Shown piece after piece: positions 623 to 57,420 of a DNA stretch of 64,000 nucleotides. Origin of the DNA: Octopus vulgaris (lineage: Eukaryota). Numbering within the stretch: position 1 is the stretch's first letter; each line of letters opens with the position of its first letter. The notes under the pieces are model-generated. The model saw only the letters and a list, made by a program, of their open reading frames with translations, did not search any database and was not told the origin of the DNA. The DNA is taken from positions 114,266,001 through 114,330,000 of the forward strand of contig OX597815.1 of the NCBI GenBank assembly GCA_951406725.2, given 5' to 3'. The translations under genes and the position numbers were made by a program.

Positions 623-1154
623 TCAACTGTTTGAAAATCTAAAATCCAGTGAATACAAATGAGAAATAAACATAGTAGTGTTTTCATCTTTACCAAAGTT
701 TTTTTTAAAATAGATATAACAACAAAACCTTCTCTAGTTATTTCATCAATAAGAGAAAACTGGGAAGATCTTGAAGTATATCTTAACTTAAATATTTTAT
801 TGATACAAACAAGACATTAAGGACTAAAATCAAATGTGAAAAGCTGTTAATAAATATTTAAAACTAAAGCATAGTTGTATTATCAGTAATTCAAAAATTC
901 TATAAATGTTTATCTTCAATAATATGCAACATTTTCTGATATTTCAAGAAATCCCTTGCTTTAAGTACAGTGTACTCTCTGCATGTCCTTTTCAAAGGAA
1001 CTGCACACATGTATGTATATCTTTCCTGTGTATTATTTCAATTATTCATACAAAGAACTGGGCTGATTTCAAACAAAGGAAACATTAATGAAAATATGAA
1101 TATGAAAAAAGCTCAACTATTGGAATTTTGCAAACAACATTGTGTGTGCATGCA

Positions 1155-1186
<32 letters not shown>

Positions 1187-2105
1187 CACACGTGTGCCCT
1201 AGTCTATATCTATGAATGCGTTTGTGTTTGAGTGTGTATTTATGTGTGCTTGTATATATATGCATGTATGATGCTTACACACACACATAAGTGCGTGTAT
1301 ATTATGTTTGAATATATCTTGCGTTCAATGCACACACACACACATGCACACAATGCTGTTTGCAAAATTCCAACAGTTGAGCTTTTTTCATATTCATATT
1401 TTCATTAATGTTTTCTTTGTTTGAAATCAGCCCCATTCTTTGTACGAATAATTGAAATAATAATAATAATAATAATAGTAATAATAATAATAATAATTCA
1501 AAAGTGCGTATAAAGAATATGCAGTAATGTACAAATGTCTGGAAAGTGAACAGTGTATGAGTCAGATACATGCGTGTGTATGGAGGGGAGAAACTCAGGT
1601 GTAGTGTTGGCGAATCTCAGGAAGCATGGAAGTTTTGAAGGATGCAGTGCTCCGACAACTAACAACTGATGCCAGCAGTTTGTTCCATGCTTCAACAACT
1701 CTTAGAGTGAAAAAATGTTTCTGAAAGTCATGGGATCTGTGCTGTTTTCAGACTTTGTAAACATGTCCACAGGTGTTAGACAGATGGAGTTTGAAAAGGT
1801 GCTCACACATGAAAGATATACATACATGTGTGCAGGTCCTTTGAAAAGGATATGCAGAGAGTACACTGTACTTAAGGCAAAGGATTTCTTGAAATATCAG
1901 AAAATGTTGCATATTATTGAAGATAAACATTTACAGAAGGGAAGGAGCTCCCCACCCAAAGAAACTTTATACCTTCTGATAAAATTGTAGAAATAATTAC
2001 GGAAGGTTTTGTTATAACTATTTAAAATAAGATTTGGTAAAGATCATGCTGCTATGTCTTTTTCTTATACAATATCACTGGACTTTAAATTTTCAAACAG
2101 TTGAA
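623..2105. repeat. Long interrupted inverted repeat (fold-back) centred on a TG/CA microsatellite
   Basis: Reverse-complement pairs: ~903-1030 with ~1805-1933, ~1031-1160 with ~1330-1462, and ~623-750 with ~1985-2105. Mirrored ORFs 906..1088(+) and 1748..1930(-) are nearly identical. Confidence 0.9.
1460..1804 (-). mobile_element. 3' fragment of a CR1-clade LINE with (ATT)n tail, inserted in the right arm of the inverted repeat
   Basis: Minus strand reads ...TCGHVYKV*KQHRSHDFQKHFFTLRVVEAWNKL..., the CR1 ORF2 C-terminal pattern. (TAA)n tract at 1457-1497. Absent from the left arm. Confidence 0.8.
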
Positions 2106-2321: not shown

Positions 2322-4479
2322 TTATTTACAATGGACATATAAGTGTCCTCACCTTGTTTGTTGTTACCACAACGTTTCAACTGATGTACTCTCCAGCCTT
2401 CATCAGGGGTTCTGATGGAATTTTGAACCCAACCCTTTATTATGTCCATACTTGAATATAATAGCTCCTTATGGAGGTAGCCATAAAGACACCAAAAGCT
2501 CAGGGAGATGAACTAAGGTGGAAAATGAGCCAGGTATTAGAGGAAGTGAAACTTCCCAAACCGAACATCACTAAGGAAGAAAAGTTCACTATCAAAACAT
2601 TACAGACTAACAGTTCCATCACAATACTTCCAGTGGACAAGGGCAAAGATACAGTGGGGATGAACAAATCTGAATACTCTGAAAAATTGGCAAGTCTCAT
2701 AAGTGATGATAGCTACAGCAAAATAAAGACCCATCTCTGAAAACAGAGAGAAAGTTGTCACAGATCTTAATCAAGAACAAGGATCACTTCATACCAATGA
2801 AGTGCAGAAAACTGACCCAACACTACAGTAAGCTGCTACACATGTATGGTCTCCCTAAGATTCATAAGGATGGTATTCCATAAGGACCTATAGTGAGCTG
2901 TAGAGGTTTGGCATGTCATCCACTGAGCTGCTTCTTTGTGAATATAATTAATCCATTAGCTGGTATGTCAACATCATATGCGAAAAATTCCACTCACTTC
3001 ACAGAATTGATCAAGGATACCCCACCTGGATCCAATCAGATGGTTAGTCTAGATGTGATAAGTCTGTTTACCGAACTCCTAACTGATGATGTACTCAATG
3101 ATTCAAGACAAATTAGCGACAGACATCTCTCTAAAAGAACATACTAGTATACCAACAGGAAACTTACTTCAGAGTAGATACTGATATATATATCGACAAG
3201 AAGAGGGTTTAGCTATGGATTCGCCATTATTACCAGTAATATATACATGGAATACTTTGAGAATTTGGCTTTAGGATCAACACCACTAAAGCCGACCTTA
3301 TGACTTTGATATGTTGATGACACTGTTATACTTTGACCCCCACCAGGAGGATGTCCAAGTGCTGCTAGATCAATAAAGCCATCCATACAGCTCACAATGG
3401 AAAAGGAGAAAGATAATCAGCTGGCATTCTTGGATGTATTAATAACACATGCTGTGTATAGGGTTCAGGACATCTGTATACCACAAGCCAATCTTCACTG
3501 GATAATACCTCAACTTCAATTCCCACCATCCATACAGTATGAAGAGAGGGATTGCTCAGTGCCTAAAACATTGAGCAAAGACTATAAGTAGTGATCTTGA
3601 TACACACCATGAAGAAATGATCAGGCTAAGAAACAATCTACTATGCATCAACTACCCAGAAAACATACTATCCACTCCAATTAAGAAGAAGAGAGAGCAT
3701 GAAACCCATAAACTGACCACAGTCTGTCTACCCTTTATCAAAGGCCTCTTGGAAAAGATACAAACGTTATGTGGTCCATATGACATGAGGACAGTAGTCA
3801 GAAGTAATACAACACTTTGCAAATATCTCCTCCAAGTAAAACCACCCATAGAAAAAAATATGACCAAAAATTGCATGTACGCCATCCCATGCAGTTGTGG
3901 TAGGTAAAAGGCAAAACATGTCATCCCCTTAAAATAAGAGTAGAGGAACATTATAAAGATGTGACATGAGGAGATATTGAAAAATTGGGTATAGCCAATC
4001 ATGTATGGAAAAACAGAAACCATCTTCCCCTGTGGGATGAAGTTAAAATAATAGACAGAGAACACCACTGGAAAATACGAAAATTAAAAGAGGCAGCACA
4101 TATGCAAGGACACAATAACCTCCTAAGCAGACCTAGTGCAGATATGGATGTAATATGGGAACTAGTATTAAGAAAAGATAAGATAATAGGTTTATGAGCC
4201 CCAAAATTCACTGTGTAGTTGCACACGGACACATAGCATAAGCTACTAACCCTCAAGTTCAATCTGAGTTCAATCCCAGGCAGGGACTTGGGAAATAATA
4301 TCAACAAAAAATAACATCAAAAAAAAAAAAAGAATACCTTTGGAATGATCACAGAGTACCCTGTTAATCAAATAAAGGGTTGGGTTCGAAATTCCACCAG
4401 AAGGCTGGAGAGTACATCAGTCAAAACATTGTGGTAACAACAAACAAGGTGAGGACACCTATCCATCCATTGTAAATAA
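2322..4479 (+). mobile_element. Decayed Penelope-like retroelement (RT + GIY-YIG endonuclease) with inverted terminal repeats
   Basis: Broken frames give KPNITKEE..ILPVDKG, MYGLPKIHKDGIP, VSLDVISLFT, GLAMDSPL, YVDD (~3310-3321), LAFLDVLI, then NCMYAIPCSCG, IANHVW, RKLKEA. 2322-2441 is the reverse complement of 4371-4479. Confidence 0.92.
2366..2412 (-). ncRNA. Hammerhead ribozyme motif in the left terminal repeat of the Penelope-like element
   Basis: Minus strand: CTGATGA-a-ggctg(gagagtacat)cagtt-GAAA-CG-TT-gtgg. Stem II pairs, stem III is the palindrome ACGT, stem I is imperfect. Confidence 0.6.
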
Positions 4480-28130: not shown

Positions 28131-28669
28131 AAAGAGTTCTAAATAAGGGGAGGTAATGAGTGATTTCTTCCGGTGTAAGGGAGATAATCGTTTAAAATTT
28201 TTTCCTTTCCTTGGTGGGAATTTCTCTGTATCAGTATGTTGGGATGGTTAAGTCTGGGCTTGTACTTTTCAATGAAGAATGTTTCCTTGTTTAGTCTAAT
28301 TTATGTTGATGATCCGATAGCACATTGGTAAAATGGAAAGATTAAAAATTGTGGTAGTAGTTGCTTTGCGCATTTCTCAATGTGCTCACTAAAAGAATGA
28401 TACCTTTTAGTGAGCACATTGAGAAATGCGCAAAGCAACTACTACCACAATTTTTAATCTTTCCATTTTATCAATGTGCTATCGGATCATCAACACAAAT
28501 TAGACTAAACAAGGAAATATTCTTCATTGAAAAGTACAAGCCCAGACTTAACCATCCCAACATACTGATACAGAGAAATTCACACCAAGGGAAAGGAAAA
28601 ATTTTTAAACGATTATCTCCCTTACACCGGAAGAAATCACTCATTACCTCCCCTTATTTAGAACTCTTT
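28131..28669. mobile_element. Near-perfect ~265-bp-arm palindrome made from a PLE 3' end (GIY-YIG C-terminus)
   Basis: 28131-28395 is the reverse complement of 28404-28669 with few mismatches and an 8-nt loop. The right arm encodes FSEHIEKC...IRLNKEIFFIEKYKPRLN, the GIY-YIG R..KE..FI....P.LN signature. Confidence 0.88.
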
Positions 28670-36480: not shown

Positions 36481-38473
36481 TAAAAGAAAAACAAAAACAT
36501 GATTTAAAGTGGAGAATTTAAAAAATAATATTCAAAACCTAACATTTTACCTTGTTTTGTTAATCATACTTTTGAGTAACAAAAATTATATTTGATATCG
36601 TAAATGGAGGTTCAAATATTAATATCATTCAACCCACACCGCCCCATATAAAATATATTCGTGTTCCGTACTTTTACACACTGGTGGCCATCAAATGCAA
36701 TTTGATTTACTTCTCTACCATAATTTAATTATCACTCGGCAGATGGATAGTAGAAATACAGAGAGCGCTGGTACATTAGTGACAGAAAGGTATAGATAGG
36801 TAACTATGTGTCAACCAGAGTATATTGGAGGGAAACAATTTCTCAGCGGAGGCCACTGCAGTTGGTATAGAGTCTAAAAATTGTTAGTCAACATTTCTGG
36901 AGACTGTCCTTTAAAGGAGTTTGTAATATTGAACTCAGTACACTGCCTCATGAAGATCACAGTTAGATGTCACTGCGCACGCAACCGTATGTTGCCATCA
37001 GTTGGTGCGCTACAGAATTTGCTCGGGAACTTTTTGATACCACTTCGTATGCTGCTAGAGTGTGTGCCGCCCGGTATAACTCTTGAGCTTGCCGCTCCCA
37101 CCCCCTAACCAAAAAAAACCCAACATATACAGCAAACCCAAAAGTGCTACCTCCCTAAAAGAGCCACCAGGGGCGGACTTCCCCTTAGCTACGTTAATGT
37201 TTGTTGTTCTCCACTTAGTAACCAGGTGCACAATAAACAAACACTGTTTTGTCCAGCTAGGTCACGAGTGTCCGACAGAGTTTGATATAATGACCGGCCT
37301 CAGCTCATGAACCTTGATTATCACTTTCTTTTTCTCTAACAAAAGCATCAACAAATGAGCCAGTGTGGTTGTTTATCCTGCTAGATATAGTAGCCAGATC
37401 TTTCTCATATTGTCTTTAAAACTATCGCTGAAAAACTGTTAACAAATATATATTTAATTCTCTACTAACTGTTTAAGCAACACCTTGTATCCAGTATTTT
37501 ACACTGTATTTCCGGGGAATAATGTATGGTTTCTAATTTAGGTCCAAGGTAAGCGAATTTTGAAGGTTTGGGATTAGTCGATACTATAGACCCCAAGGGG
37601 ATGAGAGGCAAAGCTGATATCGGCGGGATTTGAACTCAGAACAGGGCAGGCTGAAAGAACTAACGCAAAGCATTTTCTGATTCTAATGATTCTGCTAATT
37701 CACAATATATAACACACTTTTAAGGTGAATTTGATATTAGCATAATTTCATCATTTCTTCTGCATTGCATACTCTTTATTCATTGAAATTTGAATGAAGA
37801 TTATATTGTATATAGGATAGGTTACAATGAGGCTCATACAACCCATACATCGAAATCCGACACATAATTTGCTATTTGATATGAAAACTTGCCAATAACA
37901 AATGACAATATCAACACTTAGCTGAACTCTGACCATCACTGCCTGGGGTTTATGCATCTAAATACATGCTGCATTAGTAACAAGATATATTCATATCTAA
38001 CTGACATCTTGTACATAAGACTTGAGATCAATATATGGACATATTAAATTTATTTTTGTTTTTCTTCTTAGACAAGTAACCCATCGGTTGTATGCCGTGT
38101 GGCATCGAGCGGATATCTGTAAACTCCTTGAAGCTGATGAACGGGAGTTTCTTAAGTTCCGTGTTATCATCTATCAAACTAAAGTTAATTCTTTCTTTTA
38201 TTTTTGTTATGCATTTAAAATCGAACATTCAGTTCGAGTCAAAGCAGATAACAATAGGCGAATCTGAATTTTCAACAATTTGATATTTGATAGAAATGGT
38301 CGGGTCATTTTAAGCACATATAAATATACGCATGCACGCAAATACATACACACACAGACATACAAATACATACACTCACATTCGGACGAACACGGATCGA
38401 TGTAAGAAAACATGTTCATACACACTCTCATATAAACTATATATATATAAAGAGATACGCACACACGTCTCTG

Positions 38474-38515
<42 letters not shown>

Positions 38516-38566
38516 CATTTCTAAATATCTCAGAGAGATATAAGCAGTAGTGGTACGATAGAGTAG

Positions 38567-38888
38567 TTGTATACTGTCAACTTAATGTGACAGTCCTATG
38601 AAGGGAATCACACCACTGCTATTTAGCCATAGGAAGCATCAACGCTTCCTGTCGGCCTTGACACATTTCCTGTGTCCTTATGCTACTCCAGACTGATGAC
38701 GAGCAAAGACTCAGAAACTAGTCTCTGGATGCAGGCTTAGCTGGGTGGCGGTGCTTGTCTCCCTCTTGTAAACATAAGGACACAGGAAATGTGTCAAGAC
38801 CGGCAGGAAGCGTTGATGCTTCCTAGGGCTAAATAGTAGTGGTGTGATTCCCTTCATGGGACTGTCACATTAAGTTGACAGTATACAA
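38567..38888. mobile_element. Fold-back element: ~116-bp inverted arms around a 90-nt spacer containing a hammerhead
   Basis: 38567-38682 is the reverse complement of 38773-38888 with about five differences. Flanked by (TA)n tracts. No ORF. Confidence 0.88.
38687..38729 (+). ncRNA. Minimal type I hammerhead ribozyme
   Basis: tccaga-CTGATGA-cgag(caaaga)ctca-GAAA-CTAG-TC-tctgga. Perfect 6-bp stem I, 3-bp stem II with a C.A closing mismatch, palindromic stem III ACTAGT, GUC triplet. Confidence 0.82.
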
Positions 38889-38917
38889 GTATTATATATA
38901 TATATATATATGTATAT

Positions 38918-39135
<218 letters not shown>

Positions 39136-50945: not shown

Positions 50946-51993
50946 GCGTGAGTGTGTGACAGGAAAGTTTTTTAGGACGAATATAAGACCTATATCCAAG
51001 TAGCAGAAACATCGCCCAAAAGTGTATATAGATATTTAAATGTATTTATATATTCATCTATACACAGATGTATGTATAATGTGTGTGTATATATTTCCAT
51101 AGACGTAACCATTCACTCTGGACAAAGTTTTTAGGACGAAAATAAGATCTAAAGTTATCTCTAAGTAGCACAAAGATCGCCCAAAAGTGTATATAGATAT
51201 ATAAATGTATTTATATATTCATCTATGCACACATGTATGTATAACGTGTGTGTATATATTTCCATAGAGGTAACCATTCACTCCATACAAAGTTTTTTAG
51301 GACGAAAATAAGATCTAAAGTTATCTCTAAGTAGCACAAAGATCGCCCAAAAGTGTATATAGATATTTAAATGTATTTATATATTCATCTATACACACAT
51401 GTATGTATAATGTGCGTGTATATATTTCCATAGAGGTAACCATTCAATCTATACAAAGTTTTTTAGGACGAAAATATCTCTATATATAAAACTGTAATTG
51501 TGTGAGTGTCTGTCCCCTTCGATTTAGATTCCTAACTACTCTCACATTTTGCGGTGCAGTTTAACCAAATTCGGGTATCTTATAGTCGTGATTCATATCG
51601 AGCCCGTCTGAGTATTAGCGCGCGTCTACGATGAGTCTACGATTTTAAAAATAATTTAACATCATTTTTTATTCCATTTTAATGCATAATTTTTCGTGTG
51701 TCGATGGCGGCGGAGTTGGCGTCCACGCTCAAACACCTGCACCTGTGTTTGCTTCTCCCCCTTCTTCCCTCCCTCGTGAAGCTGTGGGGAAGGGAGTTTA
51801 AGGAAATCAACGTCGTAATGCGTTGTCAAGGAGACCAGCGTTCTTTTAGAACAACGACTTCATGGCTTGAAGACACCAAAACAGAAATGGCTAAGAAAGC
51901 CCGAATTGGCATCTATAAGGGAAGTAACTCTCTAAAAATGCTTATATAGTTATTTCCCTTACAAACCCGAGCAACGCCGGGCGATACTGCTAG
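50500..51993 (+). mobile_element. Non-autonomous Helitron-like element(s), two 5' ends and one 3' end
   Basis: 5' tctcttattataaaa (~50501) and tctctatatataaaa (~51477). 3' GC-rich hairpin cccgagcaacgccggg followed 9 nt later by CTAG|T (51990-51993). Confidence 0.75.
50964..51475. repeat. ~160-166-bp tandem repeat, about 3.1 copies
   Basis: aaagttttt(t)aggacgaa recurs at ~50964, 51124, 51289 and 51455 with near-identical units. Confidence 0.92.
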
Positions 51994-52820: not shown

Positions 52821-53761
52821 AGTGGTCAGTGGTATGAAGTGAAATTCTTGATTTATTTAATAATTTTCACATTGAGATAGGGTAAACATAACAAAGCAGC
52901 AACAGATTCCAAGTAGGATGGGGCGATAATTTGAACGAATGAACACTCAATCACCTGAATTTACATGGATTAAGGGGAAGACAAATCAGTTTTTTTTATG
53001 GCAACAAGAGGACAGCTATGAACTGGTGTTTCTCTATCAATAAGCGTCATCAGTGCATCCTTATTGTTGAAAATCCACGGTTATTTTGAAAACCATATAA
53101 GTAGAAAATTATGAAATACACATTTTCTTTTGAAACTATGTTTTCTGAACTGTTTGATACTGCACATTTGAAAATTATACTTTTTTGTTTTACAGTAGCA
53201 CCTCTTTTACTTTGATAACTGTCATCTGTTATTTTCCTTTTTATGCCAAGACGAGAACGCTGCTTAGAAAAAGTGACACACAGTAATCAATGATTAAAAT
53301 TATCGAACATATTTTGAAAGGAGCTTTAGACAGTTTTAACTAAAAAAAAATGAAAAAAAATGAATGCGTCTATATAAAATATTCTGCTGCCATACGACTA
53401 CGTTGTATCATGCTGTTGATAATGGTTACCTGCAACTGAAGACGTGCAAAATATAGAAATCATAATTTAGCAATTCCGTCATCACTACCGGACACTTTTC
53501 ATGTGCTACTGATATCTCTGTGCTTTTAGCACTATAGCTTCTAAATGATAAGCTTTTTCAATACGAAAAGGCTTTCTATCTACGTTAAGATTTTCAGAAT
53601 CATATATATATATATATAAATATTTCAATACGGAGCAAATATTTAAGGAGAAAATATTTGCGAAGATATTATTGACTATTATTATCTAGTGTAACAATTA
53701 AAAATGATAATAACAGAATCAATAGTATAGGCGATTGCAGCCCCCCCCCCCCCAAAGCAGA

Positions 53762-54164
53762 AGGATTAAAATTCATCAAAGGACATACTAAATATGCCTA
53801 CCTGCTGGAAATAACAGTTAAAACTCTTACTTAAATCGCCGAAAAACACTGATAATAGCTACAGAAATCAACCGTCTGCGAGCAAACGAGTTAGGACAAT
53901 CTTTCGATATACATTCAAGTATTTGGACTCACGTGGACCGGTTTCTGGACTGGCATTATTGCCTCACGTGTTAACAGGTAGGTGAAGCTATAATGCCAGT
54001 CCAGAAACCGGTTCACGTGAGTCCAAATACTTGAATGTATGCTGAAAGATTGTTGATTTCTGTAGTTATTATCAGTGTTTTTTTCGACGATTTAAATAAG
54101 AGTTTTGACTGTTATTTCCAGCAGGTAGCCATATTTAGTAAGTCCTATGATTAATTTTAATCCT
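53762..54164. mobile_element. Fold-back element (~175-200-bp arms, ~30-nt loop) carrying hammerhead 3' halves
   Basis: 53762-53959 mirrors 53990-54164; the left arm has a ~24-nt extra segment. Both arms contain GAAA-CCGG-T(C/T)-cacgtgag. Confidence 0.85.
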
Positions 54165-54981
54165 GCAGCTATTTAATATATATATAAGGAAGATAGCTAG
54201 TAGTAAAATCTCAAAAAGAGACCAGAGTAGTAACTATACTAACAAGTAAAGTTAATCGCCTCATCAAAGTGGCTGTTCCATGTTACCACTCTTTAACCCT
54301 AGGCATAACTTCCGCCAGCTGGTTAGCAGTGCGGCGTTGCACCCTGTATATACAAATATAATTGCTAGCAGGGGAGCGAACCCATACCATCCTCAAGCAT
54401 TATATATATATATCGATTATACTATTTTAAGTAATTCTGTATCCCCAAAGAACATTTAGTCCATATAGATAAGTTCTTGGTATACTTTTCAAACTAATAC
54501 AATATTTAGCTCGGGAAAGTATAAACCGATGGTAGTGATGAGGTAAAAATACAAAAAAAAAAAAACCTGATTTTCTTTAACCAGACACAGAAGCATCATA
54601 TTCTTCGGTTTTCAGAGAAATATACGATTGAGATGCTCCTAAACTTTTGTAGCGAGCATTAACATTTTAAACTAAGTAAACCAAATAGTTACAATCAGAA
54701 ACTAGAACTGCATCATGACTTTAGCAAGTCGGTTCTATGTTAATCGCCACGCCTACCACCAATAAATTCACTGTTAATTATACTTTTGTTGAGTGGTCAT
54801 ATATCGACGGTGGGAGGGTCAAAATCTCGTCAGAAGTTAAGGAAAGCAATGACATCTGGACAGGATGTGCCTAACTACGAAAAATAAAAAGCAAAAAGAA
54901 AAAAAAACAAATAAAGCTATATATTTTATTTGTCCACCTGTGACAAGCTTTTTCTATTTTATTTGTTGCTAGAGAGAGAGA

Positions 54982-56804: not shown

Positions 56805-57420
56805 GGATCTTTACCTTTTGACCGACAGATTTAAAAAATAATTTTTTGTAACTGAACACTTTCAAACTTCGGACACTGGTAGAATGTGTCAAATAAAACA
56901 TCTTTTACTCATAGCATTTTTGAGAAAAGCTTATATTTAGGAAGTTATTTCACGTTAAAGTTGTAGTATTTTGGTAATTTCAACCAATCAATGACGTATA
57001 TTCAGCTGAATAAAATTACTGCTGTTGTTTGTCAACAAGAACTTCTGGCGGGTATATTTCATTTGTCACTGTTATTTATGACAGCTCTAACCCTAACCCT
57101 AAAACCTCATAGCTAAAACCAGTACAAACGCACGAACGATGTCATAAATAACAGTGACAAACGAAAAATACACATCCGATGGTTGTTGTTGACAAACAAC
57201 GGCAGTAATTTTATTCAGCTGAATACACGTCATTGATTGGTTGAAATTACCGAAATAGGATAACTTAAACGTGAAATAATTTCATAAATATAAGTTTTTC
57301 TCAAAAATATTAAGAGTAAAAGCTGTTTTATATGACACATTCTACCAGTGTCCGAAGTTTGAAAGTGTTTAGTTACAAAAATGTTATTTTTATAATCTGT
57401 CGGTCAAAAGGTAAAGATCC
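56805..57420. mobile_element. Fold-back MITE with ~278-bp TIRs, GGATC ends and 8-bp TSD (Merlin-like)
   Basis: 56805-57082 mirrors 57140-57420. TSD cttttatt at 56797-56804 and 57421-57428. Central ctaaccctaacccta. Confidence 0.92.

What the first reader, a model, noticed from the sequence alone, without database searches (positions are those of the whole stretch)
38567..38888. 322-bp stem-loop element with a minimal hammerhead presented in its loop
Seen: ~116-bp arms enclose a 90-nt spacer that begins with a complete 43-nt type I HHR, 4 nt from the left arm. There is no coding sequence, and the element sits between (TA)n tracts. A plus-strand transcript would be a long dsRNA rod capped by a self-cleaving loop. 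It is the clearest candidate here for a retrozyme-like or mini-PLE unit (inference).
Basis: partly seen in the sequence, partly recalled or inferred. Interest (0 to 1): 0.75.

Follow-up and report, generated by a model that had tools for sequence, protein, structure and literature searches.

The report
Inverted insertion of hammerhead mini-retroelement
This hairpin is one old copy of a roughly thousand-copy family of short, protein-free jumping repeats that carry a hammerhead-type RNA motif, and the hairpin is likely just the scar left when a Penelope-type enzyme pasted two pieces back to back from two fixed start points, not a working self-cutting RNA rod.

Summary
The inverted repeat and the hammerhead (HHR) motif are real, but the unit is mis-drawn. 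The element spans about 38504-38897: a forward copy (positions 5-222) of a 351-nt non-coding monomer, joined head-to-head to an inverted copy (98-276). The arms are only where the two overlap. The family has about 1,000 segments in this genome. Copies are 5'-truncated, end at two fixed points about 56 nt apart, and often carry 7-15-bp target duplications; arm and loop lengths vary, so it is not a MITE. In 45 of 49 scorable inverted insertions each side uses a different end point; an autonomous Penelope-like element (PLE) in this genome does the same at 19 of 19 loci. This fits priming of both cut strands at the two internal start sites known for PLE reverse transcriptase (inferred). The HHR is dimer-type (palindromic helix III); in this copy it is single and predicted misfolded (+10 kcal/mol), so a self-cleaving loop is unlikely. 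No autonomous partner, cleavage, expression or circle was shown. Known kind (non-LTR retrozyme / non-autonomous PLE derivative). The scan reported the same footprint earlier for other HHR families of this genome.

The parts
38504..38682 (-). Inverted, 5'-truncated copy of the monomer (positions 98-276); outer end at the second fixed end point E2 (exact base blurred by the TA tract, 38504-38512)
   Evidence: 97.8% to the subfamily A consensus over 179 nt
38504..38557 (-).
   Evidence: sequence
38680..38682 (.). Head-to-head junction with a 3-nt overlap (microhomology)
   Evidence: (gap -3); 41 of 64 two-piece inverted loci show an overlap
38680..38897 (+). Forward, 5'-truncated copy of the monomer (positions 5-222); outer end at the first fixed end point E1 (38888-38897, blurred by the TA tract)
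   Evidence: 96.3% to the subfamily A consensus over 218 nt
38687..38729 (+). Minimal type I hammerhead motif: helix I 38687-92/38724-29; core 38693-99; C38700.A38713 mismatch; stem II 38701-03/38710-12; GAAA 38714-17; palindromic helix III 38717-22; predicted cut after C38723
   Evidence: all 12 core positions match the family; no Rfam hit; predicted misfolded in this copy
38558..38897 (.). Resulting hairpin: 125-bp arms (38558-38682 / 38773-38897) = overlap of the two copies, 90-nt loop
38480..38511 (.). Left (TA)n tract, likely the insertion target; target duplication not resolvable
   Evidence: 49 of 197 scored E1/E2 ends abut (TA)n against 96 of 2394 background windows
38893..39135 (.). 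Right (TA)n / (TATG) tract

Best explanation
The locus is a 5'-inverted insertion of a 351-nt, protein-free, hammerhead-bearing repeat that was likely copied into a TA tract by a Penelope-like (PLE) reverse transcriptase/endonuclease acting in trans, and the hairpin is likely a by-product of that integration. Shown: family, monomer, two fixed 3' end points (E1 about 220, E2 about 276), variable 5' truncation, target duplications, and the rule that the two outer ends of an inverted insertion differ. Inferred: tandem source loci are transcribed to a structured multimer (or a circle after dimeric HHR cleavage and ligation); a PLE protein, probably a dimer, nicks both target strands about 7-15 bp apart and primes one cDNA at E1 and the other at E2 on the same RNA source; both stop early and are joined at their 3' ends by microhomology. 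When only one cDNA is kept, a simple truncated copy results. The HHR would cut only with a second copy (tandem or in trans); this copy is likely a dead end.
For: Copy number: 170 exact HHR-core matches and 378 exact matches to a 24-mer, controls 0; about 970 segments by scaling. Architecture of 161 non-redundant loci: 92 simple, 69 with an inverted piece; right outer end at E1 87, E2 56, other 18. Outer ends differ in 45 of 49 inverted loci with both ends at E1/E2, 23 one way and 22 the other, p = 8e-10. Control: autonomous 778-aa PLE of this genome, 20 of 20 scorable head-to-head rows, 19 distinct places (PLE homology). Target duplications of 7-15 bp at 32 of 148 loci against 2.9 in shuffles. 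Both arms of a locus are of one subfamily in 46 of 53 (19.8 shuffled) and share 48 private changes against 15.5 in controls. HHR core: 13 substitutions in 444 against 27.5 expected, permutation p = 0.02, in loci not picked by the HHR; helix III is ACTAGT in 116 and ACATGT in 22 of 154 units, both palindromes. The minimum-energy fold of natural dimer L047 contains a hybrid hammerhead with a shared 6-bp helix III. Literature: inverted 5'-truncated copy and one-sided tail are PLE hallmarks (PMC8557442, PMC3846280); the tail lies between two internal RT start sites, and both strands are cut and extended in vitro (PMC11167929); metazoan PLE HHRs have palindromic helix III and do not cut as monomers (PMC4209133).
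Against: No autonomous partner found: none of four PLE families examined shares sequence with the monomer. 20 of 69 inverted loci have at least one end away from E1/E2 and were not scored; 4 of 49 are same-ended. 7 of 53 arm pairs were assigned to different subfamilies. Shared arm changes could also come from conversion between arms after insertion. No pile-up of 5' ends at the cleavage site (3 of 88), so cleavage is not shown. Only 4 of 161 loci, and 0 of 72 unbiased loci, have two intact cores in tandem by a strict pattern. Of 20 predicted pairs that change between subfamilies, 10 keep pairing and 10 break; paired sites are not more conserved than unpaired (0.065 against 0.058). The shared helix III costs +5 and +8 kcal/mol in two other multimer loci. 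The C.A mismatch at the base of stem II departs from the G10.1-C11.1 next to GAAA described in PMC4209133.
Confidence: 0.8

Rival explanations
1. Same family and enzyme, but the inversion arises by self-priming / fold-back of a single nucleic-acid strand (the model proposed in PMC3846280 with an antisense template), and the tail by endonuclease resolution of the intermediate.
For: Junction overlaps in 41 of 64 loci; a short palindrome lies just upstream of the HHR in the monomer; arms share private changes, as expected if one is copied from the other.
Against: In 23 of 45 loci, this one included, each arm holds sequence that the other lacks (left: 223-276; right: 5-97), so neither can be a fold-back copy of the other; both orientations are equally common; junction points are scattered.
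Confidence: 0.1
2. The unit is the solo pseudo-LTR of an autonomous PLE not yet found, so copies are 5'-truncated PLE insertions and the tandem units are secondary.
For: Most genomic PLE HHRs are solo truncated ends (PMC4209133); only the best 150 candidates were scored in each protein search.
Against: Upstream of the HHR every copy that extends runs into the monomer's own 3' part (280-351) and then into another unit, up to about 2.9 units; no locus continues into a shared ORF.
Confidence: 0.05
3. The hairpin is a selected RNA: a long dsRNA rod with a self-cleaving cap, or an exapted small-RNA or editing substrate.
For: Very stable fold; 40 of 58 two-piece inverted loci hold the HHR wholly in the loop (a sample enriched by my queries).
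Against: Arms differ from each other at 5 sites and from the consensus at 2 and 3, none shared, as for neutral decay; HHR fold costs +10.3 kcal/mol; arm length is arbitrary across copies; no A>G excess in subfamily A (71 of 5100 against T>C 65 of 5557).
Confidence: 0.03
4. A DNA-transposon MITE with terminal inverted repeats.
For: The locus alone looks like a fold-back element in a TA target.
Against: 49 of 72 unbiased loci have no inverted piece; arms 5-255 bp; the two ends are different sequences; target duplications vary from 7 to 15 bp; tandem units exist.
Confidence: 0.01

Closest known systems
Metazoan non-LTR retrozymes (Cervera and de la Pena 2020, PMC7229834; Li, Clavereau and Pollet 2026, bioRxiv 10.64898/2026.07.22.740005)
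   Same: Non-coding monomer of about 350 nt (mussel 350-390 bp), GC 43%, one type I HHR per unit, dimers and trimers present, many monomeric derivatives, strongly folding circle (z -8 to -12).
   Different: Mostly dispersed sub-monomer copies rather than arrays; minimal dimer-type HHR with a C.A mismatch; expression, cleavage and circles not shown; the passages read do not describe fixed ends, inversions or target duplications, which are measured here; no homologous PLE pLTR was found here, whereas 24 of 57 Xenopus families had a TE match.
EN+ Penelope-like elements: pLTR, inverted 5' copy and tail (PMC3846280, PMC8557442; PAc of Anolis, PMC11167929)
   Same: 5' truncation, partial tandems, inverted 5'-truncated copy, tail on one side, 7-15-bp target duplications, AT-rich / (TA)n targets, HHR with palindromic helix III, no 5' ends at the HHR cut site.
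   Different: No ORF; tail about 56 nt (30-40 bp in the papers); no identified parent element.
Non-autonomous Chlamys elements such as MRC1 (PMC8557442, passage)
   Same: Non-autonomous PLE derivatives forming pLTRs and head-to-tail insertions.
   Different: Those generally resemble autonomous families at the 3' end and the clade mostly lacks HHRs; this family has an HHR and no detected homologue.

Membership tests
Non-LTR retrozyme | Short non-coding repeat unit (about 150-400 nt) | tested here: met
   351-nt circularly permuted monomer; no ORF shared by loci
Non-LTR retrozyme | Type I HHR motif in each unit | tested here: met
   core intact in 28 of 39 unbiased pieces; motif only, Rfam no hit
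Non-LTR retrozyme | [quoted passage not shown] | tested here: met
   Met by the family (4 of 161 loci by strict pattern; dimers and trimers); not met by the window locus
Non-LTR retrozyme | Self-cleavage in vitro | not testable with these tools
   Folding only
Non-LTR retrozyme | Monomeric linear and circular RNA in vivo | tested here: inconclusive
   Only contigs of runs guessed to be RNA were available
PLE-mobilised element | Fixed 3' ends with optional tail, variable 5' truncation | tested here: met
   143 of 161 right ends at E1 or E2; 5' ends scattered from -209 to 183
PLE-mobilised element | Partial tandem and inverted 5'-truncated copy, tail on one side | tested here: met
   69 of 161 inverted; 45 of 49 with different ends; same in autonomous PLE
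PLE-mobilised element | Variable short target duplication, AT-rich or microsatellite targets | tested here: met
   32 of 148 loci, 7-15 bp; 49 of 197 ends at (TA)n; not resolvable at the window locus
PLE-mobilised element | Sequence shared with the pLTR of an autonomous partner | tested here: inconclusive
   None in four families examined; searches scored only the best 150 candidates each
Autonomous PLE | RT plus GIY-YIG ORF | tested here: not met
   No ORF in the monomer or shared flank
MITE (DNA transposon) | Identical fixed terminal inverted repeats on all copies and fixed-length target duplication | tested here: not met
Canonical monomeric type I hammerhead | Stable helix III and G10.1-C11.1 adjacent to the core; Rfam match | tested here: not met
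   2-bp helix III with 2-nt loop, C.A mismatch; no Rfam hit

The most novel reading that the evidence does not exclude
An orphan RNA parasite: a 351-nt circular RNA with no sequence kinship to any autonomous PLE recruits a PLE protein dimer by structure alone; the two subunits sit on two fixed stem-loops 56 nt apart and prime the two cut DNA strands at once, one site per strand (twin priming as the normal PLE reaction), while a variant dimer-only hammerhead with a free mismatch at the base of stem II is kept by selection to cut multimers.
Probability: 0.3. Interest if true: 0.7.

Novelty: new member of a known kind. Interest (0 to 1): 0.45.

Why it matters
The locus itself is an ordinary dead insertion. 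The family matters in two ways. It gives insertion-level evidence that an animal retrozyme-type repeat is copied by PLE machinery, a route that PMC7229834 proposes and the 2026 preprint supports by co-occurrence and phylogeny. And the one-end-each rule turns a known qualitative PLE oddity (tail on one side) into a count that discriminates between models of how PLE inverted structures form, which PMC8557442 lists as open; it can be tested in the existing PAc in vitro assay. I found no paper stating this rule in three searches; the scan's own notes report it for other families of this genome.

Tried and rejected
Rfam scan of the window and of the loop: no hammerhead hit. Partner search: 781-aa Neptune-like family, 778-aa family (54, 57, 60, 79), 883-aa family (62, 64, 65, 77), old Poseidon-like family (63, 65, 66) and 20 loci with other HHR variants (49, 52): no homology with the monomer apart from nested family or sister-family copies; clade names are recalled from motifs, not tested by a tree. 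PLE fragments beside L034 and L054 are neighbours or targets, not a shared ORF. 5' ends at the cleavage site: 3 of 88, no pile-up; the apparent excess of starts just upstream of the HHR in early samples was selection by my queries. Editing footprint: the T>C excess overall comes from recurrent subfamily sites; none in subfamily A. Expression: no RNA holder listed; contigs of four guessed-RNA runs cover the family but show no strand, ends or locus. A candidate exon at 38073-38186 found no relatives, so whether the element lies in an intron is open. The primary paper on dimeric cleavage of short-stem-III variants was not held; I used a review instead (PMC6765202, passages). Supplements were not read; those of PMC4209133 and PMC8557442 may list cephalopod HHR variants or families, and the preprint's are closed.

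Full report
Observation. The inverted repeat is there: 116-bp arms at the stated coordinates with 5 mismatches, 125 bp when extended, and a fold far beyond shuffles (z -29.7). The loop holds a hammerhead motif at 38687-38729 with a 6-bp helix I, the CUGAUGA and GAAA boxes and GUC at the cut site. It departs from the canonical form: helix III is two base pairs closed by two bases (palindrome ACUAGU), and a C.A mismatch sits under a 3-bp stem II. Rfam has no hammerhead hit.

The family. The genome (2.8 Gb, 227 contigs) holds 170 exact matches to the HHR core pattern and 378 to a 24-mer near the 3' end, with reversed controls at 0. Scaling by the share of sampled pieces that keep the 24-mer (44 of 113) gives about 970 segments, a rough lower bound. 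Tandem loci define a 351-nt monomer, GC 43%. I mapped 180 fetched stretches, 161 after removing duplicates; they were picked by four different queries, and only 72 were picked without regard to HHR or architecture. Pieces fall into four subfamilies, 4.4-7.2% from their own consensus. The window element is a forward copy of monomer 5-222 (38680-38897, 96.3%) joined with a 3-nt overlap to an inverted copy of 98-276 (38682-38504, 97.8%).

Insertion footprint. Of 161 loci, 92 are simple and 69 have an inverted piece; in the unbiased set 49 and 23. Right outer ends fall at E1 (205-228) in 87, E2 (262-285) in 56, elsewhere in 18. 5' ends are scattered. Arm overlaps run from 5 to 255 bp. Target duplications of 7-15 bp were found at 32 of 148 loci against 2.9 in shuffles (11 of 24 against 2.3 in the stricter test). 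(TA)n abuts 49 of 197 ends against 96 of 2394 background windows. This rules out a MITE and matches what is described for PLEs: partial tandems, an inverted 5'-truncated copy, a tail at one end, short duplications (PMC8557442 and PMC3846280, passages).

The two-end rule. In 49 of the 69 inverted loci both outer ends lie at E1 or E2; 45 have one of each (23 with the tail on the shorter piece, 22 on the longer), 4 have the same end (p = 8e-10). As a control I took a young autonomous PLE of this genome (778 aa; homologous to the RT/GIY-YIG ORF, E 1e-5): 42 stretches, 22 head-to-head, 2 cut by the stretch edge, 20 of 20 scorable rows with one end of each kind, 19 distinct places; 7 of these stretches were chosen because they looked head-to-head. 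The arms of a locus come from one source: same subfamily in 46 of 53 (19.8 shuffled) and 48 shared private changes against 15.5, although conversion between arms could add to this. In vitro, an Anolis PLE protein cuts and extends both strands and starts reverse transcription at two internal sites that bound the tail (PMC11167929, parts 1-2 of 4 read). The simplest reading is that each cut strand is primed at one of the two sites and the two truncated cDNAs are joined by microhomology (overlap at 41 of 64 junctions). Fold-back of one strand cannot make loci such as this one, where each arm has sequence the other lacks. This step is inference.

The ribozyme. In loci not picked by the HHR, the 12 core positions carry 13 substitutions in 444 against 27.5 expected (permutation p = 0.02), a modest sign of selection on source RNAs. 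Helix III is ACTAGT in 116 and ACATGT in 22 of 154 units, with no single-step intermediate in that set; this is probably one inherited event, and one family copy with ACTTGT appears in the listing. The double change keeps the palindrome needed for a shared helix in a dimer (PMC4209133, parts 1-2 of 4; PMC6765202, passages). The minimum-energy fold of natural dimer L047 contains such a hybrid hammerhead; in two other multimers it costs 5 and 8 kcal/mol. The monomer folds strongly as a circle (z -8 to -12) with the HHR on a long stem between 63-101 and 314-351; support from subfamily changes is mixed, 10 pairs kept and 10 broken. The window copy has lost 314-351, so the freed strand pairs with the core, and the hammerhead fold costs +10.3 kcal/mol. 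42 of 88 pieces begin upstream of the cut site and only 3 begin near it: the template was uncut or re-ligated, as reported for the Anolis element. Cleavage, expression and circles are not shown.

Partner. Four autonomous PLE families and 20 loci with other HHR variants were examined; none shares sequence with the monomer beyond nested copies. Each protein search scored only 150 candidates, so a partner is not excluded.

Comparison and novelty. The family meets the sequence criteria of a non-LTR retrozyme (PMC7229834, passages and Discussion; bioRxiv 10.64898/2026.07.22.740005, parts 1-3 of 5) and the insertion criteria of a PLE-mobilised element; the RNA criteria are untested. It is a new member of a known kind. 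The tail on one side is in print; I found no paper giving the one-end-each rule or a twin-priming reading for PLEs (search listings). I reached that reading; notes of this scan seen later report it for other HHR families of this genome, which they call cephalopod (not checked here), and none matched this sequence. Those notes are unchecked and are not counted as support. They prompted two checks: an editing footprint, not found, and a LINE landing upstream of the ribozyme, seen once.

Verdict. Real feature, correctly sensed as retrozyme or mini-PLE, but the hairpin is an integration by-product and the loop is unlikely to self-cleave. Interest 0.45: low for the locus, moderate for the mechanism the family exposes.

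Noticed in passing
L072:1652-1700 and L033:1400-1500 (G000:C1 about 85,807,300-85,809,010): A 1.7-kb insert with a CCHC zinc-knuckle ORF interrupts a family copy just upstream of the HHR, with a duplicated target of about 12 bp and a further copy of that target inside its own 5' end. One locus only; earlier notes report a LINE homing at such a site in other families.
   Followed up: partly
window 28131-28669: Near-perfect 540-bp palindrome made of two head-to-head 3' fragments of a Neptune-like PLE (endonuclease C-terminus on both strands): the same inversion process acting on an autonomous family.
   Followed up: partly
window 2561-3688: Decayed Poseidon-like PLE reverse transcriptase fragments (clade recalled from motifs).
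   Followed up: no
G000, genome-wide: 2,177 matches to a relaxed HHR pattern with ACWWGT helix III against 70 for the control; many carry one extra base on each side of stem II (C.A, T.T, A-T), so the mismatch variant is common here.
   Followed up: partly
L235, L236, L239, L247, L248: Sister families at 71-83% identity to the monomer with different stem II; L236 is a hairpin with an HHR in both arms.
   Followed up: no
L289:3900-4608; L353:502 and 6666: Young intact autonomous PLE families carry variant cores: the 778-aa family has a CCGAAGA-type motif and a tail of about 150 nt, the 883-aa family a CCGACGA minimal motif with a 6.16-kb tandem period.
   Followed up: partly
runs X17-X20 laid on window 38500-38895: Family-like contigs are abundant in runs labelled as four organisms; in X20 the ACATGT helix III makes up about three quarters of the depth, the two changes together.
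   Followed up: partly
window 38073-38186: Single-copy 38-codon frame between an AG and a GT, a possible plus-strand exon about 320 bp upstream of the element; no relatives found.
   Followed up: partly
window 1031-1462, 53756-54170, 56805-57420, 50964-51476: Further fold-back or tandem repeats without an HHR motif.
   Followed up: no
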